Positions 14,644-35,213 of a DNA stretch of 64,000 nt are shown here, one piece after another. The stretch is from a virus: IMG/VR virus record IMGVR_UViG_3300011113_000491, positions 59,466 through 123,465 of that record; one strand, written 5' to 3'. Positions within the stretch are counted from its first letter, which is position 1, and each line of letters opens with the position of its first letter. The notes beneath the pieces are model-generated. The model made no database searches. It saw only the letters and a list, made by a program, of their open reading frames with translations, and had not been told where the DNA came from. The translations under genes and the position numbers were made by a program.

Positions 14644-14733
14644 GAGATGATTCCTGAAAGAGTGCGGACGATTGAAACGGGAAAGGTGAGTAACGGCGTT
14701 AGCCGATACCCACCGAGTAGGAGGTGTGATGGA

Positions 14734-15201
14734 TCAGAGGCCGGACAGGGCGCCGGGGCCGGACAACTTGGCAAGGCGGCGGAGGAAGTCGGCCTTACGC
14801 TTGCCCTTGAGCAGCACTGCCACGCTGACATAGTTGCTGCCCTGCTGACCCTGCTCCGTGTAATCCACGGCAGCGTCACCGCGCGTAGCGAAGATGCCGC
14901 GGAAGGTGGGCATCTTGTTCATCTGCTTGCGGAGTTCGCGGATGAAACGCTCGTCCGTGTAGATGAGCCCGTGACGCTGAATGTCCCAGTCCTTCTTGGT
15001 GAAGTACACGCGGAAGGCGACATACAGATCGTCGTTGTGGTAGTCGGCAAGGAGCTCCCCATCGTTCGGGAAGATGTAGTCCAGTTCGATGCGACGGATG
15101 GTGATGGTGCGGATCGACTCCGACCACAACCCCTTGCCGTCGGTCGTGCAGACGATGGGGGTCTTGAGAGGGAACGAGATACGAGTAGTAGTGTTGGTCA
15201 T
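14734..15201 (-). CDS. Hypothetical phage protein
   Basis: LIYTD..F..EL and VDYTEQGQQG..YVS, a pattern I recall from phage hypotheticals. Confidence 0.65.
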   Translation of the reverse strand: MTNTTTRISFPLKTPIVCTTDGKGLWSESIRTITIRRIELDYIFPNDGELLADYHNDDLYVAFRVYFTKKDWDIQRHGLIYTDERFIRELRKQMNKMPTFRGIFATRGDAAVDYTEQGQQGSNYVSVAVLLKGKRKADFLRRLAKLSGPGALSGL

Positions 15202-15249
15202 GTTACTGATGATCCTTGTGTTGAGTGTGCGAGAGAAAGAAACGAACGA

Positions 15250-16458: not shown

Positions 16459-16465
16459 ACCGTCC

Positions 16466-16767
16466 AGGCTACCAGCTTCTGGTCCACGGCACAAGCCAGG
16501 AAATGGAAATATTTCTAAGTCCTTGTCCCATAAGGACTTACATAAACCCTTGTAAATAAAGGACTTATGGGGGGTATTATCGGACGCCGTTCCCTACTGC
16601 CGGGGGCGGGGGCCCATATTATCGGACATCCACCAGAGAGGAGGGGGCGTCCGATAAGCGTGATAGTATCCAGTTATGGGACTTTCGGTCGTAAGTCCTT
16701 ATGCCACAACGATTTACGATAAATCTAGGGTTTCCCTATTGCGCGGGGACCCCCGATATGGTAGCCT
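16466..16767. promoter_or_regulatory. Divergent promoter pair with operator-like repeats
   Basis: Minus: TTGTGC-17-TAGCCT-7-ATG; plus: TTGCGC-17-TAGCCT-7-ATG; three TAAGTCCTT-N7-AAGGACTTA-type palindromes; three TTATCGGAC. Confidence 0.75.
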
Positions 16768-16774
16768 GTCCGGT

Positions 16775-19228: not shown

Positions 19229-19242
19229 TAGGAGAACCTACA

Positions 19243-20115
19243 ATGACTACCAAGACATGGCCATCATCATTGGACGCACACATCGAAATGAACTTTGAGT
19301 TCAGGTACAACCACGGCGCAGGACTCGCGTTCCATGATGGACTCAATCCTGCGTTGGCGGACATCATCACTACAAGAGAGATGTTCCACCTCGCACAAGA
19401 TTGGGGATGCCAGAAGTACGCGCAGATCAAGAAGTACATCAAGGGATATGACTCGTTCAGTCTCCTCATGCACCCGGACTCGTCTGTGAAGATGTTCGTC
19501 AAGTCCCTCACCGTCAGCTACACCACGATGAACACCGAGCGGATTCTGTTCTTCTATGACTCAAAGGGAGTCAACGACGGCGTTGCAATGCTCTGGCTTC
19601 CTGGTCACAACAGTCCGGCGCCCATGAGTCCTGCTCGTTTCTCGACCCACGCCGAAACGGTCAACGGACTTGGAGACAGAGGGTACTACCGCCAATACGA
19701 AGAAGGATTCAAGCAGAATCCGATTGCGATGGCGAAGCACATGGTCTGCGAGATCATTCGGATCAAGCAGGTTCACCGATGCGCGCCGGGTAGTATGGCA
19801 GGCAGCAACGAACAGGACTTCCGTCTGATGCCGCTCGAGCTCTTCGTCGGTAGCAAAGAACTGATCCGAGATGTGTGGGATTCTCTCGTTGGATACTCCC
19901 CGCGGCCGGTCGAGATGAAGGAAGAAGGATCAGCAATCTGCACGAACGGTCTGAAGTTCGGTGACTACATGGAAGAATGCGGTGACATGATGATTACGCA
20001 CTACAACAACCACATTCTTGAATCGTTCGCAGACAACCTCCGCATCAACGGCATCAATATGTTCCCGATTGTTAGCGGTCATTCAAACAAGGGTATCGTG
20101 ACGCACCCGGTTTGA
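19243..20115 (+). CDS. Hypothetical protein
   Basis: AGGAG SD; directly downstream of the VWA gene. Confidence 0.7.
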   Translation: MTTKTWPSSLDAHIEMNFEFRYNHGAGLAFHDGLNPALADIITTREMFHLAQDWGCQKYAQIKKYIKGYDSFSLLMHPDSSVKMFVKSLTVSYTTMNTERILFFYDSKGVNDGVAMLWLPGHNSPAPMSPARFSTHAETVNGLGDRGYYRQYEEGFKQNPIAMAKHMVCEIIRIKQVHRCAPGSMAGSNEQDFRLMPLELFVGSKELIRDVWDSLVGYSPRPVEMKEEGSAICTNGLKFGDYMEECGDMMITHYNNHILESFADNLRINGINMFPIVSGHSNKGIVTHPV

Positions 20116-22617: not shown

Positions 22618-23349
22618 TTACCGTTTTCCCTTACCACGCCCCAATGAAGTAACTTGACCTCTGGCAATTTTTAGCAAAGATGGTTTTTCAATTGGTACTT
22701 CTGGCTCTGGGAAGTTTCTATCAAGAATCTTCTGTAACATCCCTGCATATCCCGCGGGATCTTGTACTCCTCGGGCCTTCCATTCACTGCCAGTTGTCTG
22801 CTGGCGACTTGCTGGAGGCCGAGCGACCTGTCTATATCTTACTCCGGCGCGTGGTCCGCCGAGCTCTGGTTCCCTCGTTAATTCTGAACCAAAATCTCCG
22901 CCGAGAGGATATTGTCTGGGAGACAGGTTCAAAATTGCCTGTTGAATATACTTCTTGAGAGCTCCAGGCAGACCCAACCCAGCAAGGAGACCTCTATTTT
23001 TGATGTTTGTACCTATTGCCTTCGCTCCAGCAAATAGTGGTGATTCCTTTTTGCTAGATGCTGTTCTCATTGCACCAAAAACATTAATTTCGTTTAACTG
23101 ATTGTTAATTCTTGCTTTGAAATGTTCTTTCATATCCATATTGAGGTTTCCTTCTTTTTCTAATTTGAATGCAGCTTTTTGAAGTTTTAGTTCTTCTTCT
23201 CTTGCCTTATTTATGCTATCGTATATTTGTCTTTCGGCAGCAGACATTGGTTTTCTTGCTCGTAAAGCATCGGCAATCTGTGCCATAAACTCATCGTCTG
23301 CCGGGGTCGTGGTTCCCTTTATTACTTTATCTAAATCGTTTTGTTCCAT
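22618..23349 (-). CDS. Late protein with an internal head-protein-like motif
   Basis: ATG 23349 lies 5 nt after TATACATA; internal MKEHFKARINNQLNE. Confidence 0.65.
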   Translation of the reverse strand: MEQNDLDKVIKGTTTPADDEFMAQIADALRARKPMSAAERQIYDSINKAREEELKLQKAAFKLEKEGNLNMDMKEHFKARINNQLNEINVFGAMRTASSKKESPLFAGAKAIGTNIKNRGLLAGLGLPGALKKYIQQAILNLSPRQYPLGGDFGSELTREPELGGPRAGVRYRQVARPPASRQQTTGSEWKARGVQDPAGYAGMLQKILDRNFPEPEVPIEKPSLLKIARGQVTSLGRGKGKR

Positions 23350-23435
23350 AAGAATATGTATAAAAGAATAACAAAATAGACATTTTGCATCGGCATACCC
23401 CCTGTGGTATAATCTACATATCAAGGAGGTGCTAT

Positions 23436-24053
23436 ATGACCAAAGAGCAAGAACTCGTAAAGCATATCAGGAATCATCTCAAGGAACATGGGTTCCGTCT
23501 TATACTCGGTAGAGGTAAGAAAGTAAATGTCGGTGACGCACGGTGTGAAGGATACTTCTCCGTTGGTGACACCAAGAAAGAAAGACAAATAAGAGTGGCG
23601 AAGGCAGGGGACACATGGTTGTATGTCCTTGCCCATGAATATTGTCATTTTCTACAATGGCTAGAAACTCCACAAAGAACTCTAGACACACAGGACAATG
23701 CACAGCATATTGTTCATTGTGTTTCTGTTGGACAGATAGATCCCAAGTGGAAACAATCATATATCCGTTGGGCATTCCGTGTTGTCGCAGAGAACGAAAG
23801 AGACTGCGAACGCAGGACGGTACGACTTCTTGAGGAGTGGGGCATTCCTTTCAACAAGGATATGTACATCAAGAAGGCAAATCTGTATGTGTATCTCCAC
23901 CATATGTGGAGAGAATATCACTTCCTGAAGACCAGATTCAATGTCTATAAGTCAAATAAGATTTTGGATGTTGTGTCAAACAACTTCAAGGCAAAGAGTC
24001 ACATCGTGGTACCAAAGGCAGTCCGAAGAGAACTCGACCGAGCATTTGCTTAA
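23436..24053 (+). CDS. HEXXH metallopeptidase-like protein
   Basis: LAHEYCHFLQ..ERDCE; promoter TTGCAT-17-TATAAT and AAGGAGGT SD. Confidence 0.7.
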   Translation: MTKEQELVKHIRNHLKEHGFRLILGRGKKVNVGDARCEGYFSVGDTKKERQIRVAKAGDTWLYVLAHEYCHFLQWLETPQRTLDTQDNAQHIVHCVSVGQIDPKWKQSYIRWAFRVVAENERDCERRTVRLLEEWGIPFNKDMYIKKANLYVYLHHMWREYHFLKTRFNVYKSNKILDVVSNNFKAKSHIVVPKAVRRELDRAFA

Positions 24054-24484
24054 AACTCTATGTGCTTGCTTGGTGGGGGTGGAGTTGCACTTATTATATT
24101 GCCAACTGTTGGCTCTATTCCCTTATCGTGCAAATCAGAAATAACTTTGAATCCCTCAGCAGTTCCTGCATAGTGCTTCACAAATTGACCATGTAACTGC
24201 TTTGCCACTCTCATTCTCTCTGGGATGGTAAGTGCGCCAAGATCTTTGTTGTCATGATTTCCACTTATAATTTTATTTTGTGCCACTTGCATTGCTTTGG
24301 CAATATGATGCGGATGCTCTGACTCTGGAACAACTCCTACCCTAGCAAGATTATCGTATAAAACTTGACTATGTAAAGTTCCCATGCCAGTGCCGGAAGC
24401 TGGGTTTTGGGGATCCCTAGCAAATATATCCATTGCAGCACTTCCGGTTCTCATTTCCAGTAAATGTTGTTTGAATGATTTCAT
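24050..24484 (-). CDS. Putative internal head protein
   Basis: MKSFKQHLLE at ATG 24484, 5 nt after TATAAATA. Confidence 0.65.
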   Translation of the reverse strand: MKSFKQHLLEMRTGSAAMDIFARDPQNPASGTGMGTLHSQVLYDNLARVGVVPESEHPHHIAKAMQVAQNKIISGNHDNKDLGALTIPERMRVAKQLHGQFVKHYAGTAEGFKVISDLHDKGIEPTVGNIISATPPPPSKHIEF

Positions 24485-24508
24485 GTCATTATTTATATAC
24501 ATACTGGT

Positions 24509-25249
24509 ATGGACAAAAGACTTCAAAGAATAAAATATGTAAGAATGGTGTTAGAGGGAATGCCAATCAAAGCATCCATAGATGGAAAACCAGTTCAGGC
24601 AGAACTTCTAGACTCTCCTGTTACACAAAATAAACCATCTGCAACGGCAGCAGCAAAATCACAGTCAACTGCGTTAGCAACAATAAAACCAAATACTACC
24701 TCTACAACTTCTGGAAGCACTTCGTCTCCAACATCTAGTCCAACATCTAGTCCCACAACTGATCTTGCCACATCAAAACAACCACAAGCAACCACTGTTC
24801 CTAATCAAAATCAAAAACCAAAGAAATCAAAAAAATCCACTGGAACATCTACAAATGTAGGTAGTGGCTCTAACACTGCTCGCGCAGGAAGAGATCAATA
24901 CGGAACCCAAGTAGGAACAGGCAATACAAATACAGGGACTATGGGGCAAAGAATAGGATCCATGAAAGACAGTTCACAAGTGACTGGAGCAGTTTCTGGA
25001 AAAAACAACACGGTAGCAGGTAGAGATGTAGTTACAAATATTTTTCAGGGTGGTGGAGGTCAAGAACAGGAAGAAAGTGGCAAGTTCTTAAATCCATTCG
25101 GAAAGGGCGGTAAAAGCAACCTAACTTCTCAACTAACCTCGGTAACAATGTCTAACAAACCAACTCCAATGTTAAGAGAAATGAAAAGAGTAAAAACAGC
25201 AAAAGGTTTATTTGAGAGAGTAAAAAATGCACGCCGATATTCCAGATGA
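24509..25249 (+). CDS. S/T/G-rich late protein with AGRD module
   Basis: TATACATA-5-ATG; module shared with 30441-31430. Confidence 0.7.
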   Translation: MDKRLQRIKYVRMVLEGMPIKASIDGKPVQAELLDSPVTQNKPSATAAAKSQSTALATIKPNTTSTTSGSTSSPTSSPTSSPTTDLATSKQPQATTVPNQNQKPKKSKKSTGTSTNVGSGSNTARAGRDQYGTQVGTGNTNTGTMGQRIGSMKDSSQVTGAVSGKNNTVAGRDVVTNIFQGGGGQEQEESGKFLNPFGKGGKSNLTSQLTSVTMSNKPTPMLREMKRVKTAKGLFERVKNARRYSR

Positions 25250-25610
25250 CATTCTACAACAGTATATGCAAGAAGGTGCTGACTTCGGATTCAGCGCCGT
25301 TGATAATGGTGAACTGAGTGGCATACTAAGCCCGGTTCAGGATAGTCCAGAGATAAATGCAATCAAGGAAAAGTTAGATCTCATTCTTGAAATGAACTCA
25401 ACTTGTGAGGGTGCTTTAGCAGTTAAGGCACAATACGATCAACTACTCAAGGCAAGACTTCTTGAAATAGAAAAAAATATAGTCCCTCTTTTACTCAACC
25501 TGAAGAAAAATAAAGAGAAGGACTATATTTATTGGCCAGGCGCCCAAAGACAGGCGCAATGTGACTTACAAGTTCAGAAGATTCTGAACCTTACTCGAAA
25601 TAACCTTTAA
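25227..25610 (+). CDS. Conserved T4-like hypothetical protein
   Basis: DFGFSAV..IVPLLLNLKKNKEKDYIYWP. Confidence 0.7.
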   Translation: MHADIPDDILQQYMQEGADFGFSAVDNGELSGILSPVQDSPEINAIKEKLDLILEMNSTCEGALAVKAQYDQLLKARLLEIEKNIVPLLLNLKKNKEKDYIYWPGAQRQAQCDLQVQKILNLTRNNL

Positions 25611-25845
25611 TCTTACTTCCGATCTTTTCGATTAGACCGTCGATGAAAGATTTTGGTTCTTCCTTTTTCTCAACAACTGGGACTTGGATTTCGCATCTGT
25701 CTTGACCAACAAGAAGACTGGCATTCTTTGGATCGATTGCTCTTGCCACTCCCTTCATGATCTCAACTTCAGATAAAAGCATTTCCTGACACTTCCCGGT
25801 ATATGCCTTGGCGAAATATAACTGAACTTTCTTACCTTTCTTCAT
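25591..25845 (-). CDS. Hypothetical protein
   Basis: Start/stop overlap; GAGGAG SD. Confidence 0.55.
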   Translation of the reverse strand: MKKGKKVQLYFAKAYTGKCQEMLLSEVEIMKGVARAIDPKNASLLVGQDRCEIQVPVVEKKEEPKSFIDGLIEKIGSKIKGYFE

Positions 25846-26462
25846 ATTCTTCTCCTCTTATTTAAAAATACTGACAACGATAACAACGCAAGACATCCGG
25901 GTGCTGGAACGGCGTTCGTTCCAAAACCGCAGTAGTCAATCAAATTACCTTGTGTGTTTCCGCCCACTGCATTCACTGCTTCAAATGCAAATCTAGTCAG
26001 ATTGCCAATTGAAGTAATAGTTCCGAAGTGAACTTGCCATGCTGTGTTATCAGCAGAAAATTCTTGTTGAAATAAAACGGTATCATCTCCACCACCAACA
26101 GTCTGATCTGTACCAAAATCAGTGATGGTCAAACGCATGGTATCAACACCATCTCTTCCACGGTGAGCAAAGTGCCAATTGATTTGATTGAAGTCACCGA
26201 GTCCATTTACATTCTGATATAGGGTAGAAGCATAATTTGCATTTAATTCTGCAAACGAATTTCCTTCATAGGCAGGAACTCCTAAAAATCCATTTTCCCA
26301 GACTTCGATCAAGTTATCTGGTGCAGTAGTTGCCCAGCCACTTTGAGGATCTGTTCCAGAATAAAAACTGTAGCCCCATGCGGGAAAGCTCTCAAAACCA
26401 CCATTGACTAAATTTGCGGATGCTGAAGTGGTAATTGCTAATGCTGCTAGAAATGCTTTCAA
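25842..26462 (-). CDS. Secreted PEP-CTERM (VPAPG-type) protein with beta-rich domain
   Basis: Signal peptide MKAFLAALAITTSASA; NLVNGGFE; C-terminal VPAPGCLALLSLSVFLNKRRRI. Confidence 0.8.
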   Translation of the reverse strand: MKAFLAALAITTSASANLVNGGFESFPAWGYSFYSGTDPQSGWATTAPDNLIEVWENGFLGVPAYEGNSFAELNANYASTLYQNVNGLGDFNQINWHFAHRGRDGVDTMRLTITDFGTDQTVGGGDDTVLFQQEFSADNTAWQVHFGTITSIGNLTRFAFEAVNAVGGNTQGNLIDYCGFGTNAVPAPGCLALLSLSVFLNKRRRI

Positions 26463-27202
26463 ATTCTTCTCCTTGTTGGTTTAACTAACTGATACAGCAC
26501 GAACGACGAAACGGTTGATGGTGTAGGAACAACCGATATTGCTCCCATTCTATAATCAGGTGTCATATCAATATCTGGTAACTGCGTAGAAGTCAGATCA
26601 AATGATATGACCGGAGGAGTCGCGTAAAAATCAGAAACCGCTAGATCAATTGCGGATACTGCTTCAGGCAACTGCTCCGGTTGTGCTGGAGACTCCACTG
26701 CATCTTTCGATGAAGTCTTTGGTTTTAATTTAAATCTAGTTGGAACAAACGAAGATGATTCCGAGTTAGATTTAGATGAAGTGGCAACATATATGCGATA
26801 TGGTCCTTCATACTTTGTGTTCTCTTCCAGAAAGATATTCTTATTTGAGTTTGCTACAAATTCTTTAAGATTTGGATTTCTTATTTTATTTGGAGTGTTG
26901 ATGTTGTTGGTTTGATCACTAGATCCAGATTCTGCTTCTGGAGTTTTGTCTGGATTTGCAATGTTCTGAACGCTAGTAATAGACTCAATCAACTTTTGAA
27001 TCTTTTCTACTGCTTCTTGTCCAACTATAGTCAATGCAACAGTACTGGCAATAGTCAATGCCATAATCTTACCCTGCATACCGACTATTCTTCTTTTATT
27101 TTCTTCGTTCTGTTTCTGACAGTCTTCTATTTGACCTTTTTTGATTTCTTCTATTTGTTCCTTTAATGATTCGCAAGAAGAACAATTTGGTTTATTTGAC
27201 AT
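26459..27202 (-). CDS. Membrane-anchored protein with degenerate PEP-CTERM tail
   Basis: Coiled coil, hydrophobic helix, C-terminal VPTPSTVSSFVLYQLVKPTRRRI. Confidence 0.65.
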   Translation of the reverse strand: MSNKPNCSSCESLKEQIEEIKKGQIEDCQKQNEENKRRIVGMQGKIMALTIASTVALTIVGQEAVEKIQKLIESITSVQNIANPDKTPEAESGSSDQTNNINTPNKIRNPNLKEFVANSNKNIFLEENTKYEGPYRIYVATSSKSNSESSSFVPTRFKLKPKTSSKDAVESPAQPEQLPEAVSAIDLAVSDFYATPPVISFDLTSTQLPDIDMTPDYRMGAISVVPTPSTVSSFVLYQLVKPTRRRI

Positions 27203-27246
27203 GTTTTGCCTTTCTGGTAAAACATTACAAACACATCTTAAACAAA

Positions 27247-27417
27247 TTATATAATACGAAACTGTGCTGGATATATTCTAAACTTTGCGTCAGAATCTTC
27301 CGAATCTTTAGACTCTTTCTTGGGTTTTCTTATGGATTTAATTACCCCAATCCTTCTTTGTTTTGGAGTTAGTTCAGTCCTTTCAGAATAAAACTCAGAG
27401 AGTCTTCGTTTCTTCAT
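27247..27417 (-). CDS. Small basic late protein
   Basis: MKKRRLSEF at ATG 27417, 5 nt after TATACATA. Confidence 0.5.
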   Translation of the reverse strand: MKKRRLSEFYSERTELTPKQRRIGVIKSIRKPKKESKDSEDSDAKFRIYPAQFRII

Positions 27418-27463
27418 ACAGATATGTATAAATAATATTATACAACCTAATAAGGAGAATCCT

Positions 27464-27826
27464 ATGAAAGATTTTAACTCTCTGATCGGTAAGATTTTTG
27501 AAGAAAAGGGGAAACATGCAGACAGGATTCGAAAAAAGGCAAAATTTAAGAAGGTAGATTCAAAAAAAGAAACCAGAAGTGGTAGACCTATCAACCGTTG
27601 TCGGTGTGAAAGATGTCAAAACGGTCGTAAATGCTCCATGAATAAGAAGATGGACGAGTCTTCTGAGGATTCTATATATGAGTATCTGTACGAGTATATT
27701 TTAAGAAAGGGAAGCGAATACCAAATTGTCAGCAAGAAGGGGAAACCTCTTGGCAAGTTTAAGAGTAAAAAGAAAGCAGTCAAGAGACTTCGGCAGATAG
27801 AATGGTTTAAGCATCACAAAAAATGA
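27464..27826 (+). CDS. Basic protein with Cys cluster
   Basis: TATAAATA at 27427 and AAGGAG SD; CRCERC; LGKF..KKKAVKRLRQIEWFKH. Confidence 0.65.
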   Translation: MKDFNSLIGKIFEEKGKHADRIRKKAKFKKVDSKKETRSGRPINRCRCERCQNGRKCSMNKKMDESSEDSIYEYLYEYILRKGSEYQIVSKKGKPLGKFKSKKKAVKRLRQIEWFKHHKK

Positions 27827-28299
27827 GCTGGTCAAAGAAATACAAAAAATCAATAGACTGCAATAACCCAAAAGGATTCTCCCAAAGGGCTCACTGTCAA
27901 GGTAGAAAGAAAAGAAAACTTAAAGAGTTCAAGGAGTACATCACTGAACAGGCAGAATTACAGAGCAAAGTTTCAGACTTTGTTGACTTTGCCACCAATT
28001 ACCTTGGACTCAGCAGAAGACCAAATGTTACTCTTCTCACTGTCAGGGAACCAAATATGACTACTGCGTACTACAACATAAAAGATGGTAATATGAAAAT
28101 ATATTCAAAAGGTAGAGCATGTTTTGACATTTGTAGAAGCATTGCACACGAGATGGTTCACCAAAAGCAACACGAAGAAATAGACAATCCAGACGATCTT
28201 GATGGTTCAACTGGATCACCACACGAAGATGAAGCAAATGCAGTTGCAGGACGAATGATTAGAACATATGGGGAACAGGTGCCTGGATTCTATGAATGA
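27823..28299 (+). CDS. HEXXH metallopeptidase-like protein with basic N-terminal module
   Basis: WSKKYKKSIDCNNPKGFSQRAHC; IAHEMVHQKQ..EDEANAVAG. Confidence 0.7.
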   Translation: MSWSKKYKKSIDCNNPKGFSQRAHCQGRKKRKLKEFKEYITEQAELQSKVSDFVDFATNYLGLSRRPNVTLLTVREPNMTTAYYNIKDGNMKIYSKGRACFDICRSIAHEMVHQKQHEEIDNPDDLDGSTGSPHEDEANAVAGRMIRTYGEQVPGFYE

Positions 28300-28954
28300 A
28301 ATAAAGCAACAACTTCTAACGGAAATCAAACAAAGATTCGGTTCATTCGATCACAAAGACATGAAAATAACCGATAAGAGATTTCCTTTGCAGATAAACA
28401 ACAAATACAAAAAAGATAAAAAGACAGTAAAAGAAAAAGCAAAAGAAGAAATTGAAAAAGGATATCATCGTGGTATAATAAGAAAAGCAAATTTACCTAC
28501 AAGTTATAGATTCAAACCAACAGCATTTAACACTGGTAAACTCTCATATTCTGGTTACACTGAGAGTGGAAACCACGAATATACGATAAAATCAGAAAAC
28601 GGTGATGTTAAAATAAACATAGATCACAGGAAGTCTAAGAAATCAAATCTTAAAAAAGGTTCACTAACAACCAGTAACATCAATATAGATTTTACAACAG
28701 AAAAACCATCTGAAGAGATAATGAACAGTATAATACCATCAATAGCACATCACATAAATTCACATGCACCAGACACAATCAATTTTGAAACCAAAAATTT
28801 AAAAGCATTTTATGACAAGATGATTGATGGTATATCCAAAAAATACAGGGTTTCCTCTAAAGAAGATGAAAACGGAAAACATTCTTGGACTCTACAAAGC
28901 AAAAAGATAACCCCAAAAATTCAACATCTAATTAAAAGTCTGCTAAATAAATAG
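28292..28954 (+). CDS. Hypothetical late protein
   Basis: MNEIKQQLLTE leader; C-terminus loosely resembles that of 6323-6778. Confidence 0.6.
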   Translation: MNEIKQQLLTEIKQRFGSFDHKDMKITDKRFPLQINNKYKKDKKTVKEKAKEEIEKGYHRGIIRKANLPTSYRFKPTAFNTGKLSYSGYTESGNHEYTIKSENGDVKINIDHRKSKKSNLKKGSLTTSNINIDFTTEKPSEEIMNSIIPSIAHHINSHAPDTINFETKNLKAFYDKMIDGISKKYRVSSKEDENGKHSWTLQSKKITPKIQHLIKSLLNK

Positions 28955-28986
28955 TAAACGATCAGTTATAAAATAAGGAGTAAACC

Positions 28987-29259
28987 ATGGCAAGCAATCC
29001 AAGATTCGCCGGAAATAACAGAAATAGAAGCGCAGATCAAGAAGCAAGACTAAGAATTGCTGAAAGACGACAAGGATTTCCAAATGGTAGTCCTCTAAGA
29101 CCAGTTGAAGATGTAAACAATGCAAGTCAAAAGTATCTGGAGAAGAGTAGATTTCATAAAGCAAATCAAATAGGAAACCAACCAGTTCCTCCACAGATAA
29201 ATGCAGCAGATCGTGATCTACAAAGAAGAGCAGAGAGAAAACAACAGAGACAGGACTGA
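28987..29259 (+). CDS. Hypothetical R/Q/N-rich protein
   Basis: TAAGGAG SD. Confidence 0.6.
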   Translation: MASNPRFAGNNRNRSADQEARLRIAERRQGFPNGSPLRPVEDVNNASQKYLEKSRFHKANQIGNQPVPPQINAADRDLQRRAERKQQRQD

Positions 29260-29261
29260 TA

Positions 29262-29564
29262 ATGCCTAATTATGGATTTGTGTGTGAAAATTGTGAAAAA
29301 ACATTCGAATGTTTGTTGAGTATGTCTAATAGAGATAATCCGTTAAATGAACCCTGCCCCCATTGCTTAAAGGAAGGTAAAGTTGTAAAGGATTTTCAAG
29401 GAATACGATGTGCTTTATCTTCTGATGCAACACTAACTCCCGACAAAGCAACAGGTGGTAGATGGTCGGAGTTGATGGGAAAGATGAAAAAGGGTTTAGC
29501 TCCGAGATATCATGGAAAATTAGATGCAGCAACAAATAGATCGGGGAGAAGATGGAAAGGCTGA
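29262..29564 (+). CDS. FmdB-like zinc-ribbon protein
   Basis: MPNYGFVCENC..FE..PCPHC. Confidence 0.8.
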   Translation: MPNYGFVCENCEKTFECLLSMSNRDNPLNEPCPHCLKEGKVVKDFQGIRCALSSDATLTPDKATGGRWSELMGKMKKGLAPRYHGKLDAATNRSGRRWKG

Positions 29565-30439
29565 CATTCAAAGAATTTATCTTAGAGGCAAAAGGAATAT
29601 TTGGTCAATACGGATCGGTTGACGCAACTCGGAGCTATCTTGAGTCTCAAGGTAAATTTAGATATACTAGTGCCATAGACGCATACTTTCAAAATAGATT
29701 TTGGAATCAGCAAGACGCAGGAAATAAAGTAGAAGTTCCCAAAGAGAACATTTCAAGAACATACACCGACACAATATCATCTCTAAAGCAAAGCGGTCAA
29801 GCCCCAGTTTCTAGAGATTATAGATCACAAGTTATCAGAAATAGAAGAATAGCGGCAGGGGAAAAGGTATTGCCTTCCGATCTTCTAAAAGAAGCAAGAA
29901 AACTTACAGCAAAAATATCCTCTCCCAGACTGAGGGTATTTGACTTCGACAATACGATTGCAAATACTAATTCTCGTGTAATAATAAAAGACAAGAAGAC
30001 AGGCGAAGTCATTCAAAAACTTTCATCAGCAGATTATGCAAAATACAGACCACAAAAATCTCATGAGTCTGACTTTTCTGAGTTCTCTAAAGTAATTAAT
30101 CCCAGAGCAATATTTCAAATACAAGGAATAATGCAGAATCTTTCTAAAAAGAATAGACCATATACAATATTAACCGCTAGACCACAATCTGCATCTAAAG
30201 AAATATTAAGATACTTGAAAAAACAAGGCCTGAGCAGCAAAGGAGTACGAGTTGTTGGACTTGGTACGTCTGATCCTGAAGCAAAAGCAAGATATCTTTC
30301 TGGGATTCTTCAAAAAGGAAAACACACCCATTTAGAATTCTTTGATGATCATCATGAAAACGTAAGACATGTTGCAAAACTATCTAAATTATTTCCGGGT
30401 ATAAATATAAAAGCAAGACACATAGCATACGGAGACTAA
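29552..30439 (+). CDS. HAD-superfamily phosphatase with internal-protein-like leader
   Basis: LTFKEFILE; VFDFDNTI, ILTAR, K, FFDD. Confidence 0.75.
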   Translation: MERLTFKEFILEAKGIFGQYGSVDATRSYLESQGKFRYTSAIDAYFQNRFWNQQDAGNKVEVPKENISRTYTDTISSLKQSGQAPVSRDYRSQVIRNRRIAAGEKVLPSDLLKEARKLTAKISSPRLRVFDFDNTIANTNSRVIIKDKKTGEVIQKLSSADYAKYRPQKSHESDFSEFSKVINPRAIFQIQGIMQNLSKKNRPYTILTARPQSASKEILRYLKKQGLSSKGVRVVGLGTSDPEAKARYLSGILQKGKHTHLEFFDDHHENVRHVAKLSKLFPGINIKARHIAYGD

Positions 30440-30440
30440 A

Positions 30441-31430
30441 ATGGACAAAAAAACATATTTGAGCTGGATTTCATCTGAAGTAGAAAAGAAAAATTTTTAC
30501 AATTTAGATGAAGCAAAGAAGAAAGCAACTAAAAAACCAACCTTGACACATCCAGAATTAAAAACAGCAGCAAATGCTCTAATTGAACCATTTGCTGATA
30601 AGATTGCAGCGGCAATAGATAGAATTGGTCAAGAGAGAGTTTCTTTGTCCTCTCCAAAATCAGATGATGATGAAGCACTTCCATCCGTTGATGAATTTCA
30701 ACCATCATTTTCCAAAGAACCAGTGAGCATAAAGTACGGAAAAGCAGCTGGGTATACTAAATCTCAACATCCAAGTGATAAATCTTCAATAATCGATACA
30801 CTGAATCAAATGTATGCAGTAAATGAAGAAAATCTAAATGAGTTCAGTGCTGCGGCCGCCCAAAGAGTTACACCAGCAAAGAGAATAGGAAAAACAAAAA
30901 GTTTCAGTAGATCCGCAAGTAAAGAAACTGGTGGAGCAATTGTAAGAGTAGGTGGAGCAAAACCACAGACATCAACTGGTGGAGCAATTGTAAGAGTAGG
31001 TGGAACAAAACCAGCACCAACTTCATCCGGCGGAGCAATAGTTCTTGCTAGAAGATCACCAATAAGAACAGTTCCATCAGAAAATACCACCGGAGGAGCA
31101 CTAACAACAACTGGAGGAAATACGACAGGTGGTACAAGTGCGACTCCAGTAACTACCACAAGACTTCCAAACATTAGAACTACAAATAGAATAACTAATG
31201 TAAGAAATATTGGTGGAGACATCAATGTTGCAAGAGCAGGAAGAGATCAATACGGAACCCAAGTAGGAACAGGTAATAAAAATACAGGGACTATGGGGCA
31301 AAGAATTGGTAGAATGCAGGGTAGTTCACAAGTAACTGGACAAATTAGTGGAAGCAACAACACAGTTGTCGGTCGTAATCTAAGAGAAATGACCGCAGAA
31401 ATAGTCAAAAGAAAGCTTTGTATTATCTAA
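30441..31430 (+). CDS. Low-complexity late protein with GGAIV repeats and AGRD module
   Basis: (T/S)GGAIV three times plus TGGALT; module shared with 24509-25249. Confidence 0.7.
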   Translation: MDKKTYLSWISSEVEKKNFYNLDEAKKKATKKPTLTHPELKTAANALIEPFADKIAAAIDRIGQERVSLSSPKSDDDEALPSVDEFQPSFSKEPVSIKYGKAAGYTKSQHPSDKSSIIDTLNQMYAVNEENLNEFSAAAAQRVTPAKRIGKTKSFSRSASKETGGAIVRVGGAKPQTSTGGAIVRVGGTKPAPTSSGGAIVLARRSPIRTVPSENTTGGALTTTGGNTTGGTSATPVTTTRLPNIRTTNRITNVRNIGGDINVARAGRDQYGTQVGTGNKNTGTMGQRIGRMQGSSQVTGQISGSNNTVVGRNLREMTAEIVKRKLCII

Positions 31431-31431
31431 T

Positions 31432-32127
31432 ATGATCGTAGTTGGTAATTTTCATCATGTAAAAACCGATCTTGAACTTCCAAATCTAGAAAGACTTGAA
31501 GTAGCAGGGGAACGATTCTACCAGACACCAGATGGTAGAGTATATCCCTCTGTAACCACTGTAACTGGATTTGAAAAGCGATCATTTTTTGCCGAATGGA
31601 GAAGAAACAATCCCACAGAGTCAAAGAGAGTTTGTTCTAGAGGCAATAGTCTTCACTCTGTAGTCGAAAAATATTTACTTAACGAAAGAGTAGATTTATC
31701 TGAGCTGGGTGATATAGAAAGAGATCTATTCCACACCATAAAACCAGAAGTAGATAAAATAACGAACATATATTGTCTAGAATCTCCTCTTTACAGTAGA
31801 ACACTTCAGTTGGCTGGTAGAGTGGATTGTATTGCCATGCACGAAGGAAAATTAGCAGTAATAGATTTCAAAGGCAGTACCAGAAACAAGAAGAGAAATG
31901 AAATAGAAAACTATTTCTTACAAGCAAGTGCATATTCATTGATGTTTCAAGAAATGACTGGAATCAAAATTCCTGATATTAAAATATTGTTGGCATCGGA
32001 GGAAGGAATTTGTCAAGTTTTTGAAGACAAAGTTATAAATAATGTTGGTAGATTAAAAGAAGTCATAGACACATACTTTGATTATATTAGAAACATGAGG
32101 AACAACAATGAAGCGACTACGACTTGA
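31432..32127 (+). CDS. PD-(D/E)XK exonuclease
   Basis: YPSVTTV, RGNSLH, AGRVDCI, IDFKGS, YFLQASAY. Confidence 0.85.
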   Translation: MIVVGNFHHVKTDLELPNLERLEVAGERFYQTPDGRVYPSVTTVTGFEKRSFFAEWRRNNPTESKRVCSRGNSLHSVVEKYLLNERVDLSELGDIERDLFHTIKPEVDKITNIYCLESPLYSRTLQLAGRVDCIAMHEGKLAVIDFKGSTRNKKRNEIENYFLQASAYSLMFQEMTGIKIPDIKILLASEEGICQVFEDKVINNVGRLKEVIDTYFDYIRNMRNNNEATTT

Positions 32128-32512
32128 AGAAGTGAACAGAAGAAACTCAGTTACATGGACCGCATGTAATGATGATTCTAGATCACTAGTATGGAGAAAA
32201 CTTTTTATTGAAAGTTTTGGTGGTAAATTCTTAAGAGAAGGTCGCTACTGGAAATGGGAAGAAAACAAAAAAGAACAAATTATTCCAAGAAAATCTTGGG
32301 TGTTTTCAGACAAAAATAGTAAAGAGGTAAGAATAACTAATTTTACCGAATACTGCAAAGAACACGATTTGAGTAGATCCGCTATGTATGAAGTCATGAG
32401 TGGTAAAAGACGACAGCACAAGGGGTACACATTCTTGGCAGAAGAAATAAACGGTGTAAAAATAGTTCGACTTTTCGATCCACCGTCAAACGACGAAGAA
32501 AAAGTAGTCTAA
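32108..32512 (+). CDS. Hypothetical protein with small HTH-like module
   Basis: NFTEYCKEHDLSRSAMYEVMSGKRRQHKGY. Confidence 0.6.
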   Translation: MKRLRLEEVNRRNSVTWTACNDDSRSLVWRKLFIESFGGKFLREGRYWKWEENKKEQIIPRKSWVFSDKNSKEVRITNFTEYCKEHDLSRSAMYEVMSGKRRQHKGYTFLAEEINGVKIVRLFDPPSNDEEKVV

Positions 32513-32530
32513 TATAGTCAAGTTTGTGCC

Positions 32531-32558
32531 AACCAGAGGATTACCCTCTGGTTTTTTA
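32531..32558 (+). terminator. Intrinsic terminator
   Basis: AACCAGAGG..CCTCTGGTT then a T-tract; TATAAATA follows at 32563. Confidence 0.75.
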
Positions 32559-32588
32559 TCTGTATAAATACAGTACAGGAACTAATTT

Positions 32589-35213
32589 ATGGCAAAAAGT
32601 ATAGTCGTAACATATGGTAGATTCAATCCCCCAACGGCGGGACACCACTTACTAGCACAAGAAGTGGTGCGTCAGGCGGGAGAAATGGGTGCAGATCATA
32701 TGATCTATGGTAGTATGAGTGCAGATCCCAAAAAGAATCCACTTACCCCAGAACAAAAAGCAAAGCACATGGGAAGAGTTCTAGGAACTCCAAGAGTCCA
32801 TGTTGGTGAGGGTGCAAGAAATCCATTTGAGATGCTTCATCATTTAAGTCAGCAGGGGTATGACACGGTTCATATGGTTCTTGGTTCAGATAGAGCAGAT
32901 GAAGGTATATTCAACAAAATGAAACAATATGTTGAAAGTGGTGAACTGCCTGGAGTTGGAAAACTTGGAATCAAGAGACTTACAGGTTCAACTGCCGGTG
33001 CAGCAAGAAGTGATGATGCCAAAGGTCTAGCTGGTATTTCCGGTACGAAGCAAAGAGCTTTTGTTTCTGCTGGAGACTTTGCTGGATTCAGAAAAGGTCT
33101 TCCCGGACATGTTTCTGAAGAGCATGCAAGAGAACTTTTCGATGACGTTAGGGCTGGAATGCAAGGATCAACTAAATCCAGGCCAAAAAAGAAAGTATCC
33201 AAAAAGAAAGTTGCAAAGAAAGTAAAGAAGAAACTTAAAGAAAGTTTATACTTTGGTCCCTTGTCGTTTGTTATCAATTCATTTTTGACAGAATCGCAAA
33301 AGAAAACAACGGTAGAAAGAAAAACATCACAGAATACAAGAAAAAGAAACCAAAGAACTAACGACAAGGCAAAACAAGCCTCAGGTGATTTGTCTCAATA
33401 CATGATTGTTAGCACAAAACAAAATAAAATTGAAATTATTACAAAGGGCGCATACAGAAGCAAAAATCATGTGATTGTGACCCCACCAGAAAAAATGAGT
33501 ACTGGCGCAATGTCTAAAGCCGCCAAAGACAAAAACTTTAGAGCAACACCAACTTCTGTAAAATTAGGATTTGGAAAGAAAGAAGATTTAGAAAAAGAAG
33601 GAAAATCAGAGAAGAAAAAATCACAGGCGAGAGGAAAAACCAAAAGCGAAAAACAAGAAGCACCCCAAGCTCTACCACAAAGAGTTCCGAGAGTGTCTGG
33701 TTCAAAATCAAGTTTTCCAGATGACGATCATGCTGCTGGAGATATGGAATCTGGAATTGTTGCCGCATTCAATGAAGCAATGGGCATATCACTAGAAAAG
33801 CAAATAAAAGAAAAACTAATTACACCAGAAGCAGCAGAATTTATAAAAAATAGCACCACTCTCGGAGACTCGGCCAGAAGAACATTACAGGTTATTTCAG
33901 AACAACTATCTGTAAAACATCCTGGATCTAACTTTGCTGCAATACACTATGGAGCAACAAAAACAGAAAGACTAAGTAAATTTTGGACTGGTTATGGCGG
34001 AGTAGATAACACACCAAAGTCTGACATATTGTTCCGTGACATGAACACTGGACAAATTATTGGTGTTTCTGTGAAGTGTGGACCATCACAGTTGATGTCG
34101 GGTAAGGCCGGCGGCGAAGCAACTGCTACTGTATATACCGCACTTGAAGGAATGGACAAACGAAAATTAGAACCAAAAGTTCAAAAGAAAGTTCAAAAAC
34201 TAATAAAAGCACTAAAAAATTTAGTGAATGAACCAAGAAGAACTAAAGGTGGAGATATATCTGATTACCTAAAAGGAGAACTGAAAGGTAAAGACGAAGA
34301 TATATTGTTGTTCGACAAACTTCATAAAGATGCAAAAAAGGATCTAGAAGATCTGTTATCAGAAAGTAAAGAATTTAGAAAAGGATTTGTTTTTGAAGCA
34401 CTAACTGGTGCAGCAAAATTTGATACAGGAAATCCAAAGAAAATAAGTCCTGCTGTAGCACAATATGTACTGTCCATGAATAGAGATGGAACAGAAACAT
34501 CATTATCTCAAATAACACCAGAATATGCAGATAAAGTTGCAGATGCTTTAAGTTTCGTTATTCGTTTTAAGAGTAGTTCTGTAAAATCATCCGAAGCAGT
34601 GGCATTTCAAAAGAAGACTGGTAAAAAACTATATTCATACTGGAGTGTGATATCAATGGTTCTAAATCCAAAGAAGTTCATAAAAGAATCATTTACTTAT
34701 AATCCAGTTCTAAGTAGTCTGCTAAATGAAGATCCTGTAACAGACAGAGAAACTTTAGAAATTTTAGATCAAATTGAAAATGAAATTGGTGGAGATATCT
34801 ACTCTTTAATGCAGTTCCTAGAGATTGAACCCGAATCGTTTTCAACTGGAGACATTGACTTTACAAACTTTGGAAAAGTAGAATCAGGATTCTATAACAC
34901 AGTTGTAATAGGAGATAAACAATTTGAAATACCAGTAGAAAAGAATGTAATAGAACAAGTTTATATTTCTTTTGCTAAAAAATTCCTACTAGAAAAAAGA
35001 AACTATAGAAAAGAGTATGACAATTACCAAGGTCGTTCAGATCAGATTGAGAAGAGATCAAGTCGCAACAAGGCAAGAAGACTTCTCAAGAAGATGGGTA
35101 GAGTAAGAGATGGGGACGGAAAAGATGTTGATCACAAGAATGGCAACCCAAAAGATAATAGTGTTAAAAATCTAAGAGTTACCAGCAAGTCCCACAACAG
35201 ATCCAAGAGGTAA
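32589..35213 (+). CDS. Cytidylyltransferase-like / PD-(D/E)XK-like / HNH multidomain protein
   Basis: YGRFNPPTAGH, GSDR, ISGTKQR; TPKSDI..VSVK; DVDHKNGNPKDNSVKNL. Confidence 0.75.
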   Translation: MAKSIVVTYGRFNPPTAGHHLLAQEVVRQAGEMGADHMIYGSMSADPKKNPLTPEQKAKHMGRVLGTPRVHVGEGARNPFEMLHHLSQQGYDTVHMVLGSDRADEGIFNKMKQYVESGELPGVGKLGIKRLTGSTAGAARSDDAKGLAGISGTKQRAFVSAGDFAGFRKGLPGHVSEEHARELFDDVRAGMQGSTKSRPKKKVSKKKVAKKVKKKLKESLYFGPLSFVINSFLTESQKKTTVERKTSQNTRKRNQRTNDKAKQASGDLSQYMIVSTKQNKIEIITKGAYRSKNHVIVTPPEKMSTGAMSKAAKDKNFRATPTSVKLGFGKKEDLEKEGKSEKKKSQARGKTKSEKQEAPQALPQRVPRVSGSKSSFPDDDHAAGDMESGIVAAFNEAMGISLEKQIKEKLITPEAAEFIKNSTTLGDSARRTLQVISEQLSVKHPGSNFAAIHYGATKTERLSKFWTGYGGVDNTPKSDILFRDMNTGQIIGVSVKCGPSQLMSGKAGGEATATVYTALEGMDKRKLEPKVQKKVQKLIKALKNLVNEPRRTKGGDISDYLKGELKGKDEDILLFDKLHKDAKKDLEDLLSESKEFRKGFVFEALTGAAKFDTGNPKKISPAVAQYVLSMNRDGTETSLSQITPEYADKVADALSFVIRFKSSSVKSSEAVAFQKKTGKKLYSYWSVISMVLNPKKFIKESFTYNPVLSSLLNEDPVTDRETLEILDQIENEIGGDIYSLMQFLEIEPESFSTGDIDFTNFGKVESGFYNTVVIGDKQFEIPVEKNVIEQVYISFAKKFLLEKRNYRKEYDNYQGRSDQIEKRSSRNKARRLLKKMGRVRDGDGKDVDHKNGNPKDNSVKNLRVTSKSHNRSKR

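What the first reader, a model, noticed from the sequence alone, without database searches (positions are those of the whole stretch)
24878..31376. Duplicated ~49-aa AGRD module resembling amyloid-signalling motifs in two late proteins
Seen: ARAGRDQYGTQVGTGN(T/K)NTGTMGQRIGxMxxSSQVTGx(V/I)SGxNNTV(A/V)GR occurs at 24878-25024 and 31230-31376. The DNA is near-identical over the first ~80 nt in otherwise dissimilar low-complexity proteins, and both copies are followed by an LREM site. Known from memory: AGRD, GGD and GxNNxV-type G/N/Q/T pseudo-repeats typify bacterial NLR-associated amyloid signalling sequences, and herpesviruses use RHIM decoys. Inference: phage amyloid-like decoys of host cell-death signalling, or a self-assembling virion module.
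Basis: partly seen in the sequence, partly recalled or inferred. Interest (0 to 1): 0.7.

Follow-up and report, generated by a model that had tools for sequence, protein, structure and literature searches.

The report
Shared tail cassette, two phage proteins
Two otherwise dissimilar, floppy, positively charged proteins of an uncultured freshwater T4-like phage carry the same 49-residue glycine/threonine/asparagine-rich stretch near their ends, kept alike by copying between the two genes; it looks more like a shared docking tag than a demonstrable amyloid decoy.

Summary
Two genes, A (24509-25249) and B (30441-31430), share a 49-residue module with 41 of 49 residues identical (BLASTP E 8e-27). 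Both also have a conserved L-R-E followed by a basic helix.

Both genes are under purifying selection. The 5' half of the module is homogenised within each genome by gene conversion.

The module is an orphan. An exhaustive HMMER search of 1.84 billion proteins found only this phage clade. There was no Pfam, PHROG or PADLOC match and no cellular look-alike. No NLR, Bell or adjacent-pair layout is present. The amyloid-decoy reading therefore fails every test that could be run, although fibril formation itself could not be tested.

The phage is T4-like:
- TATAAATA late-promoter motifs precede structural genes and gene B.
- At least 10 genes start with capsid-targeting-like leaders ending in L/I-x-E, and both genes sit next to one.
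- 5 of 5 relatives encode a T4-type prohead protease.

My best reading (about 0.35) is a shared C-terminal docking and processing cassette on two basic head-internal proteins. This rests on circumstantial evidence. Interest is modest.

The parts
24509..25249 (+). Gene A: 246-aa basic (pI 10.6), mostly disordered protein. It has an N-terminal helix, an S/T/P-rich linker, the module, a 48-aa spacer, then L-R-E-M and a basic C-terminal helix.
   Evidence: ORF. Orthologues in L005 and L006 and fragment P0006. Whole-gene dN/dS 0.13 against L005. pI. AF2 helices at residues 3-16 and 220-245, the rest with pLDDT < 50.
24878..25024 (+). Module copy A (49 aa).
   Evidence: This is the most constrained part of gene A (dN/dS 0.03).
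24878..24958 (+). Gene-conversion tract in copy A. Its partner is 31230-31310.
   Evidence: 74/81 nt identical. 38-nt exact run at 24884-24921. dS between A and B is 0.19 here, against 1.13 and 0.53 for the orthologue pairs.
25172..25246 (+). L-R-E-M and basic C-terminal helix of A.
   Evidence: LREM located. AF2 helix at residues 220-245. L-R-E is kept in L005, L006 and P0006.
30400..30407 (+). TATAAATA (T4-type late-promoter motif) 33 nt upstream of the ATG of gene B.
   Evidence: It is conserved at the same offset in relative L003.
30441..31430 (+). Gene B: 329-aa basic (pI 10.05) protein. It has a helical N-terminal part, three GGAIVRVGG-type repeats, T/N/G-rich repeats and the module, then L-R-E-M and a short C-terminal helix.
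   Evidence: ORF. Orthologues P0004, P0005, L003 and L004. Whole-gene dN/dS 0.14. AF2 helices at 3-16, 22-28, 37-68, 113-142 and 314-328.
30926..31013 (+). Tandem 48-nt repeat inside B that encodes the GGAIVRVGG units.
   Evidence: Repeat family D9, 98% identity. A third, diverged unit is visible in the translation.
31230..31376 (+). Module copy B (49 aa).
   Evidence: dN/dS 0.21 against L003.
31380..31427 (+). L-R-E-M and C-terminal helix of B.
   Evidence: The tail has dN/dS 0.07.
24050..24484 (-). Divergent neighbour of A. It has a TATAAATA motif 5 nt upstream and a 10-residue capsid-targeting-like leader ending L-L-E.
   Evidence: (family D4).
29552..30439 (+). Gene immediately upstream of B: a polynucleotide-kinase/phosphatase-like protein with a 12-residue leader ending I-L-E.
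   Evidence: phrog_415, E 5e-11. Leader.

Best explanation
Shown: A and B are real, lineage-restricted protein genes of an uncultured freshwater T4-like myophage. Both encode strongly basic, largely disordered proteins with a common C-terminal cassette: a 49-aa G/T/S/N/Q-rich module, then a conserved L-R-E, then a basic amphipathic helix. The 5' half of the module is repeatedly homogenised between the two genes by intragenomic gene conversion.

Inferred: the cassette is a shared docking and processing handle that takes both proteins to the same partner. The most plausible partner is the prohead core. There the T4-type prohead protease, which cuts after L/I-x-E, would cut after L-R-E and remove the helix. 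The basic proteins would then remain inside the head with the DNA. On this view the cassette is a C-terminal counterpart of the N-terminal capsid-targeting leaders that this phage puts on at least ten other proteins.

What the 49-residue module itself contacts is not known.
For: Real genes under selection: dN/dS is 0.13 (A) and 0.14 (B) against orthologues. The module in A scores 0.03 and the tail in B 0.07.

Shared cassette: BLASTP gives 44/59 identities, E 8e-27. L-R-E is kept in 9 of 9 sequences. AF2 places a helix starting at L-R-E in both proteins.

Basic proteins: pI 10.6 and 10.05. [quoted passage not shown]

T4-like phage: PHROG matches to tail sheath, large terminase, head-closure Hc2 and baseplate-wedge proteins, and to family-B DNA polymerase, DnaB-type helicase and ribonucleotide reductase.

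Late promoter motif: TATAAATA occurs 13 times against 2.6 expected, and 0 of 100 shuffles reach 13. 18 of 21 genome sites precede an ORF within 60 nt, including baseplate genes and gene B. The site before B is conserved in L003.

Protease logic: T4 gp21 cuts after L/I-x-E, the capsid-targeting sequence is 10 residues with processing determinants at residues 8 and 10, and Alt and gp21 are also processed at the C-terminus (passages of PMC9026906).

Leaders in this genome: 25 of 122 ORFs have [LI]-x-E ending at residues 9-15, against 6% of internal windows. A clear family reads M-K-S-F-K/R-Q-Y/H-L-L-E. One leader preceded by TATAAATA ends in L-R-E followed by M, the same four residues as in A and B.

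Neighbours: genes directly next to A (24484, minus strand) and B (29552, plus strand) carry such leaders.

Protease gene in relatives: 5 of 5 relatives with 70-76% identical sheath proteins encode Peptidase_S77 (E about 1e-38) a few kb beyond the sheath gene, which is where this record breaks off.
Against: There are no virion proteomics and no expression data.

Neither A nor B has an N-terminal leader of the T4 type.

A has no TATAAATA upstream.

The record itself holds no prohead protease or major capsid gene (0 of 1; the record is 55% complete). The protease is therefore inferred from relatives.

[LI]-x-E is short, so 2-3 sites are expected by chance in proteins of this size (rate). Only the conserved position of L-R-E carries weight.

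A protease site does not explain why 49 residues are conserved.

In B the module (dN/dS 0.21) is less constrained than the N-terminal part (0.08).

Neighbourhood to leader-bearing genes is association only.
Confidence: 0.35

Rival explanations
1. The cassette is an intracellular interaction peptide with no virion role. It is a disordered, conserved linear region through which both proteins bind the same host or phage factor, such as DNA, a replication or transcription component, or the membrane via the amphipathic helix. On this view L-R-E is simply part of the helix, not a cleavage site.
For: Both genes lie in the non-structural half of the record among nucleases, a kinase/phosphatase-like gene and orphans. 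Both proteins are basic and disordered. [LI]-x-E is frequent by chance. A lacks a late-promoter motif.
Against: B has a conserved TATAAATA of the kind that precedes this phage's baseplate genes. L-R-E followed by M recurs at the end of a leader preceded by TATAAATA elsewhere in the genome. No binding partner is indicated by any search.
Confidence: 0.25
2. The module is a self-templating cross-beta (amyloid-like) or otherwise homotypic assembly motif that lets A and B co-assemble with themselves and each other. Keeping the two copies alike would then be selected for, not just a by-product of recombination.
For: The composition fits the bias reported for BASS motifs: rich in G, N, Q, V and I, and poor in K, P and L (section 9). 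The module has P 0, L 0 and K 1-2 of 49. There is a weak two-fold pseudo-repeat in B, reached by 15 of 300 shuffles. The two copies co-vary by genome, including one residue that is T in both copies here and R in both copies of the relative. The module is not modelled as any monomeric fold.
Against: The pseudo-repeat is not significant in A, where 115 of 300 shuffles reach it. N+Q make up only 8-10 of 49 residues and hydrophobic residues 22-24%. The same composition marks ordinary beta-helices. Co-variation extends to synonymous sites, as gene conversion alone predicts. The 3' half of the module has diverged between A and B (dN 0.30). No amyloid family matched.
Confidence: 0.12
3. The module is a short stretch of an oligomeric (for example trimeric) beta-helix or fibre-like fold of a virion decoration or fibre-associated protein.
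For: G/N/V-rich, P/L-poor composition is typical of beta-helices (Baxa et al. as cited in section 9). By eye, hydrophobic-x-G pairs recur every 11-14 residues. B has a late-promoter motif.
Against: No periodicity stands out in the offset scan. There is no Pfam or PHROG fibre family. 49 residues embedded in long disordered, basic sequence is unlike known fibre proteins. AF2 gives no beta structure, although the alignments are shallow.
Confidence: 0.1
4. The module is a phage decoy or jammer of a host amyloid-signalling (NLR/Bell or Bab/Agp-type) defence.
For: There is only the compositional resemblance and the fact that amyloid signalling does act in antiphage defence (abstract and passages of 10.1101/2024.11.07.622273).
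Against: No cellular protein carries a recognisable copy: 3 hits at E <= 0.001 in 1,835,955,588 proteins, namely self, a fragment of an A orthologue and a spurious repetitive protein. The scan of 185,579 species genomes found 0 relatives among 75 pattern matches. There were no PADLOC or Pfam matches. The module is twice the usual ~25-residue motif length. It is embedded in 246- and 329-aa proteins with other conserved parts. The host is unknown. The Bab/Agp preprint contains the words 'decoy' and 'phage-encoded' 0 times.
Confidence: 0.04
5. The conserved thing is the DNA or RNA, not the protein: a recombination hotspot or a regulatory element that happens to lie in two reading frames.
For: There is a 38-nt exact run and 74 of 81 nt identical. 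Public contigs break inside copy A, at 24913-24931 in two runs.
Against: Orthologues differ mostly at synonymous sites while keeping the peptide: for A against its orthologue, 13 synonymous versus 2 non-synonymous codon changes, dN/dS 0.03. The 3' half is conserved as protein but not as DNA between A and B. No Rfam match overlaps either copy. Contig breaks are what any repeat longer than the assembler's word causes.
Confidence: 0.03

Closest known systems
Phage T4 capsid-targeting sequences and gp21-removed propeptides (IPI-III; Alt and gp21, which are also processed at the C-terminus)
   Same: A T4-like phage. Short peptide handles sit on otherwise unrelated, often basic proteins. An L/I-x-E site lies at the junction (passages of PMC9026906 and PMC3012670). 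This genome carries clear N-terminal leaders of that type.
   Different: The cassette is C-terminal. At 49 aa plus a helix it is far longer than a 10-residue leader, and it has no sequence likeness to the leaders. Packaging and cleavage are not shown. The protease gene is seen only in relatives.
NLR-associated amyloid signalling motifs (BASS1-11, fungal HRAM/sigma/PP, RHIM)
   Same: G/N/Q-rich, P/L/K-poor composition. The same motif occurs in two proteins of one genome. It lies in the C-terminal region. There is possibly a two-fold pseudo-repeat.
   Different: There is no NLR, Bell or other death-effector domain. The genes are 6.35 kb apart, not adjacent. Both copies are C-terminal, rather than one C-terminal and one N-terminal. 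The module is about twice the motif length. No profile matched, and no amyloid test was possible.
Prion-like (PLAAC) domains reported in phage proteins
   Same: Low-complexity polar stretches in phage proteins. 5040 of 370,617 phage proteins were flagged (abstract of PMC5694896).
   Different: Those are compositional calls, mostly in attachment, penetration and release proteins. Here the stretch is a specific conserved sequence under purifying selection, and only 16-20% of it is N+Q. PLAAC itself was not run.
Encapsulin cargo-loading peptides and microcompartment encapsulation peptides (recalled, no call)
   Same: The architecture is a variable body, a disordered linker, and then a short conserved C-terminal docking peptide shared by unrelated cargo.
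   Different: There is no sequence relation and a different shell system. This is named only as a functional analogy from memory.

Membership tests
NLR-associated amyloid signalling motifs (BASS/HRAM/RHIM type) | [quoted passage not shown] | tested here: not met
   Both copies lie in the C-terminal third of their proteins. The genes are 6352 nt apart with about 10 ORFs between them.
NLR-associated amyloid signalling motifs (BASS/HRAM/RHIM type) | A partner domain is present: NB-ARC/NACHT NLR, Bell/HeLo-type, or another death effector. | tested here: not met
   0 Pfam families for A or B at E <= 0.01. At E <= 10 there are only noise hits (Pannexin_like, SOG2, DinI, ORF11CD3). 0 PADLOC families.
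NLR-associated amyloid signalling motifs (BASS/HRAM/RHIM type) | Match to a motif profile (RHIM, HET-s, sigma and PP in Pfam; BASS1-11 pHMMs). | tested here: inconclusive
   No Pfam amyloid family matched at E <= 10. The BASS pHMMs are in supplements or author files that I could not see, so they were not tested.
NLR-associated amyloid signalling motifs (BASS/HRAM/RHIM type) | About 25 residues; enriched in Q, N, G, V and I; depleted in K, P and L (section 9). | tested here: inconclusive
   The composition fits: P 0, L 0, K 1-2, G 10-11 of 49. The length is 49 residues. The bias is not specific, since beta-helices share it.
NLR-associated amyloid signalling motifs (BASS/HRAM/RHIM type) | Forms amyloid fibrils or prion-like foci and cross-seeds its partner. 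| not testable with these tools
   This needs ThT, EM, GFP-foci or seeding assays. ArchCandy was not available.
T4-type capsid-targeted or prohead-protease-processed head proteins | An L/I-x-E cleavage motif at the junction of the propeptide and the mature protein. | tested here: met
   L-R-E lies at the start of the C-terminal helix in 9 of 9 A-type and B-type sequences. The motif is short, so this is necessary, not sufficient.
T4-type capsid-targeted or prohead-protease-processed head proteins | A gp21-type prohead protease (Peptidase_S77) is encoded by the phage. | tested here: inconclusive
   0 of 1 in the record itself, which is 55% complete and ends just past the tail-tube gene. 5 of 5 relatives with 70-76% identical sheath proteins have it, E about 1e-38.
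T4-type capsid-targeted or prohead-protease-processed head proteins | An N-terminal ~10-residue capsid-targeting leader. | tested here: not met
   Neither A nor B is among the 25 of 122 ORFs with [LI]-x-E ending at residues 9-15. The proposed handle is C-terminal.
T4-type capsid-targeted or prohead-protease-processed head proteins | Late expression. | tested here: inconclusive
   TATAAATA lies 33 nt before B and is conserved in L003. None lies before A. No RNA data are available.
T4-type capsid-targeted or prohead-protease-processed head proteins | Present, and processed, in purified virions. | not testable with these tools
   The phage is uncultured, and no proteomics are held.

The most novel reading that the evidence does not exclude
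The module is a phage-borne, self-templating cross-beta motif. Its two copies are kept matched because A and B must co-polymerise, either to build an internal or assembly scaffold or to intercept a host amyloid-type death signal. That would be the first amyloid-signalling-type motif shown to be used by a phage itself.
Probability: 0.1. Interest if true: 0.8.

Novelty: new variant of a known kind. Interest (0 to 1): 0.3.

Why it matters
If the cassette is a C-terminal head-targeting and processing handle, the T4 'tag, load, cut' principle extends from 10-residue N-terminal leaders to a longer C-terminal tag. That would give a second sequence signature for spotting packaged, possibly injected, proteins in uncultured T4-like phages.

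The case also cleanly illustrates how very short repeats (38 nt exact) are homogenised within a recombination-proficient phage genome. This can mimic co-evolution of 'matching motifs', so it is a caution for amyloid-pair searches that rely on within-genome motif matching.

If the amyloid reading proved true, it would be a first for phages. Nothing here raises it above a compositional resemblance.

Tried and rejected
**Complex prediction** (2 copies of B 250-329 plus A 112-246): the verdict was 'no answer' (score 0.02 against a mark of 0.32). This is neither support nor evidence against binding.

**AF2 monomers** of B and A: mean pLDDT 40.7 and 46.5, with the module at pLDDT about 30-49. The alignments had only 4 and 3 rows, so this does not show disorder. 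It only shows that no ordinary fold was predicted.

**ESM Atlas**: no usable hit by features. Structure rows all had TM <= 0.40 on a model with pLDDT 0.42, so they are meaningless.

**GenBank phages**, tblastn with B: no match in 50,697 records.

**IMG/VR pattern scan** with the module: 127 pattern matches, 0 relatives.

**N-terminal 150 residues of B**: only the same 3 proteins among 662 candidates.

**Rfam** on both copies with 1.5-kb flanks: 4 sub-threshold matches, none overlapping a module.

**Sigma-70 and terminator scan** of 23300-32600: 34 promoter-like sites against 24.3 +/- 3.9 expected, which is uninformative. One good terminator lies at 32531-32553.

**Sequencing runs**: no RNA holder was listed, so nothing can be said on expression.

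**Laid contigs** of 4 runs: no contig joins copy A to copy B. Cover is patchy and contigs stop inside copy A, as expected of a repeat.

**Internal periodicity**: the ungapped offset scan shows no outstanding period. The gapped half-against-half test is marginal in B and null in A.

**Direction of gene conversion**: not claimed, because dS and raw identity disagree.

**P0007** (E 1.1e-4) was rejected as a relative. It is a 1880-aa tandem-repeat protein with no matched stretch.

**Earlier scan notes**: none for this genome or sequence.

**Literature**: a search for phage-encoded amyloid or RHIM decoys gave 9 papers, 8 listed. None concerned phages encoding such motifs, judged by title and abstract start only.

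**Not seen**: the supplements of the BASS paper (motif pHMMs, Tables S2-S3) could not be read and may bear on the profile test.

Full report
**1. The observation**

The two stretches are there as described.
- Window 24878-25024 and 31230-31376 each translate to 49 residues. They lie inside ORF A (24509-25249, 246 aa) and ORF B (30441-31430, 329 aa), both on the + strand.
- 41 of 49 residues are identical: 8 non-synonymous and 10 synonymous codon differences, with 119 of 147 nt identical.
- BLASTP of the whole proteins finds one significant segment, 44/59 identities at E 8e-27 with compositional adjustment. Nothing else scores below E 10. The similarity is therefore far beyond chance and confined to the module.
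- The first 81 nt are 74/81 identical, with a 38-nt exact run.
- The record holds only these two copies.
- L-R-E-M follows in both: 2 residues after the module in B, and 48 residues after it in A.

**2. These are real genes**

A metagenome scan recovered orthologues of both genes from a related phage: L003 and L004 for B, L005 and L006 for A.
- Against these, whole-gene dN/dS is 0.13 for A and 0.14 for B.
- In A the module is the most constrained part (0.03; 13 synonymous against 2 non-synonymous codon changes).
- In B the N-terminal part (0.08) and the tail (0.07) are more constrained than the module (0.21).

**3. Concerted evolution**

- In the first 25 codons, dS between A and B of this genome is 0.19. 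The orthologue pairs give 1.13 (A) and 0.53 (B).
- In the last 24 codons the pattern reverses: A against its orthologue 0.27, A against B 1.00.
- Three sites sort by genome, not by gene: TAC, GTA and ACA in both copies here, against TAT, GTT and AGG/AGA in both copies of the relative. The third changes the residue from T to R in both genes.
- A third lineage shows a different mosaic. Fragment P0006, an A orthologue, carries the B-type residues in the middle of the module.

This is the signature of repeated gene conversion with different tract ends. High recombination activity in T4-like phages is established knowledge, not a result of any call here. Conversion alone explains why the copies match. 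Selection for matching copies is neither needed nor excluded.

**4. Distribution**

The module is an orphan.
- The exhaustive HMMER search of 1,835,955,588 cluster representatives gave 3 hits at E <= 0.001: B itself, the A-type fragment P0006, and a spurious 1880-aa tandem-repeat protein.
- The word-indexed search of 5.8 billion proteins gave B and two orthologues, out of 11 candidates.
- There were no relatives in IMG/VR, GenBank phages or 185,579 species genomes.
- There was no Pfam, PHROG or PADLOC family, even at E <= 10 for Pfam.
- Near-identical DNA of the 7.1-kb stretch is held by 20 listed runs from 9 studies, one of which may be the source. The labels are freshwater, lake, river, lagoon or viral metagenomes.

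**5. Properties of the proteins**

- Both are strongly basic (pI 10.6 and 10.05), and 40-48% of their residues are G, N, Q, S or T.
- AF2 models are poor (mean pLDDT 40.7 and 46.5, with alignments of 4 and 3 rows). They agree on an N-terminal helix at residues 3-16, an unmodelled middle that includes the module, and a C-terminal helix that begins at L-R-E.
- The module has no P, no L and 1-2 K. It has 10-11 G, 10-11 S+T and only 8-10 N+Q.
- A two-fold pseudo-repeat is marginal in B (15 of 300 shuffles reach the score) and absent in A (115 of 300).

**6. Genome context**

- The record is a 123-kb fragment of a T4-like myophage, 55% complete by CheckV. It has tail sheath, large terminase, head-closure and baseplate-wedge genes upstream of the window. 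Inside the window it has a family-B polymerase, a DnaB-type helicase and ribonucleotide reductase.
- TATAAATA, the T4 late-promoter motif, occurs 13 times in the window against 2.6 expected.
- 18 of 21 genome sites precede an ORF within 60 nt. These include baseplate genes and gene B (33 nt before the ATG), and the site before B is conserved in L003. Gene A has none.
- A family of genes starts with a 10-residue leader M-K-S-F-K/R-Q-Y/H-L-L-E.
- 25 of 122 ORFs have [LI]-x-E ending at residues 9-15, against 6% of internal windows.
- According to passages of PMC9026906, T4 gp21 cuts after L/I-x-E. The capsid-targeting sequence is 10 residues long with processing determinants at residues 8 and 10. 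Alt and gp21 are also trimmed at the C-terminus, and T4 relatives carry other basic proteins with such leaders. PMC3012670 (passages) describes internal proteins as diverse defence proteins that share only the targeting sequence.
- Genes directly beside A (start 24484, minus strand) and B (start 29552, a kinase/phosphatase-like protein) carry such leaders. One leader preceded by TATAAATA elsewhere ends in L-R-E followed by M.
- The record stops just past the tube gene and holds no protease or capsid gene. However, 5 of 5 relatives with 70-76% identical sheath proteins encode Peptidase_S77 a few kb further on.

**7. Best reading (confidence 0.35)**

Shown: two paralogous-looking basic disordered proteins share a conserved C-terminal cassette, made of the module, L-R-E and a helix, in a phage that very probably uses a T4-type 'tag, load, cut' system.

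Inferred: the cassette is a shared docking and processing handle, most plausibly for the prohead core, with cleavage after L-R-E.

Weak points:
- There are no proteomics.
- A has no late motif.
- The protease is seen only in relatives.
- L-x-E is short.
- The model does not say what the 49 residues bind.

**8. The amyloid-decoy reading**

Of the features that define NLR-associated amyloid signalling (passages and section 9 of 10.1101/2020.01.06.895854):
- The adjacent effector/sensor layout and the partner domains were tested and not met.
- Composition is met but non-specific.
- Pfam profiles do not match, and the BASS profiles could not be tested.
- Fibril formation cannot be tested here.

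No cellular look-alike exists at HMMER sensitivity. A short, diverged host motif would escape such a search, so the idea is not excluded, and I put it at 0.04. A non-decoy homotypic or amyloid-like role stands at 0.12.

The Bab/Agp preprint (abstract and passages) shows that amyloid signalling acts against phages but does not mention phage decoys. PLAAC-type domains are common in phage proteins (abstract of PMC5694896), which lowers the weight of composition.

**9. Other rivals**

- An intracellular interaction peptide with no virion role (0.25).
- A short oligomeric beta-helix (0.10).
- A nucleotide-level element (0.03). This is contradicted by synonymous divergence with protein conservation and by the lack of any Rfam match.

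**10. Novelty and verdict**

The duplicated module is real, lineage-specific and evolving in concert. It belongs to no described family.

As a mechanism, the nearest known kind is the T4 targeting and propeptide system, of which this would be a C-terminal, longer variant. That remains to be shown.

Interest is modest (0.3). The boldest surviving reading, a phage-used cross-beta motif, has about a 0.1 probability.

Noticed in passing
window 2533-4128(-), 4334(-), 4386(+), 4875-5492(-), 5742(-), 5739-6326(-), 6323-6778(-), 11678(-), 24050-24484(-), 27464(+), 29552(+), 38201(+); also genome position 55665(-), outside the window: At least ten genes begin with T4 capsid-targeting-like leaders of 9-13 residues ending in [LI]-x-E. 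Several have TATAAATA 5-34 nt upstream. The bodies include a 531-aa protein and a polynucleotide-kinase/phosphatase-like protein. This is a probable set of head-packaged cargo proteins.
   Followed up: partly
window 8000-20000: An island of 55-58% G+C sits in a genome of about 37% G+C. Its long ORFs (850 aa at 16676-19228, 537 aa at 10557-12170) have no Pfam match. This could be acquired DNA or an assembly chimera.
   Followed up: no
window 10557-12170(-) compared with L004:6813-7298: In the relative L004, the homologue of the leader gene that starts at window 11678 (minus strand) lies directly before the homologue of window 38201 on the same strand. In the window it sits about 26 kb away, on the other strand and inside the high-GC island. 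The gene order has therefore been rearranged.
   Followed up: no
window 25842-26462(-) and 26459-27202(-): Two adjacent phage ORFs end in a hydrophobic stretch followed by R-R-R-I. By eye this resembles PEP-CTERM-type sorting tails; that name is recalled, not from a call. Pfam and PHROGs gave no match.
   Followed up: no
window 30926-31013 (inside gene B): Three tandem units of the type T-G-G-A-I-V-R-V-G-G-x-K-P (repeat D9, 98% identity at DNA level). They are conserved in all B orthologues. Their function is unknown.
   Followed up: no
window 56615-58084(-): This 489-aa family-B DNA polymerase ORF covers only the N-terminal half of the PHROG model (positions 7-494 of 856). The polymerase therefore appears to be split or interrupted.
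   Followed up: no
window 6784-7214: Three copies of a 36-nt repeat ending in TTTGGGGACTGGGGGATCCTAA (family D6) lie close to TATAAATA sites at 6785 and 7144. This may be a regulatory or terminator element.
   Followed up: no
window 54987-56606(-): Three tRNA genes, Asn(GTT), Gly(TCC) and Leu(TAA), lie next to the polymerase gene.
   Followed up: no
window 32531-32553(+): A strong terminator-like hairpin (9 pairs followed by a T-run) closes the unit that begins at gene B. A TATAAATA motif follows at 32563, before the 874-aa cytidylyltransferase-like/HNH protein.
   Followed up: partly
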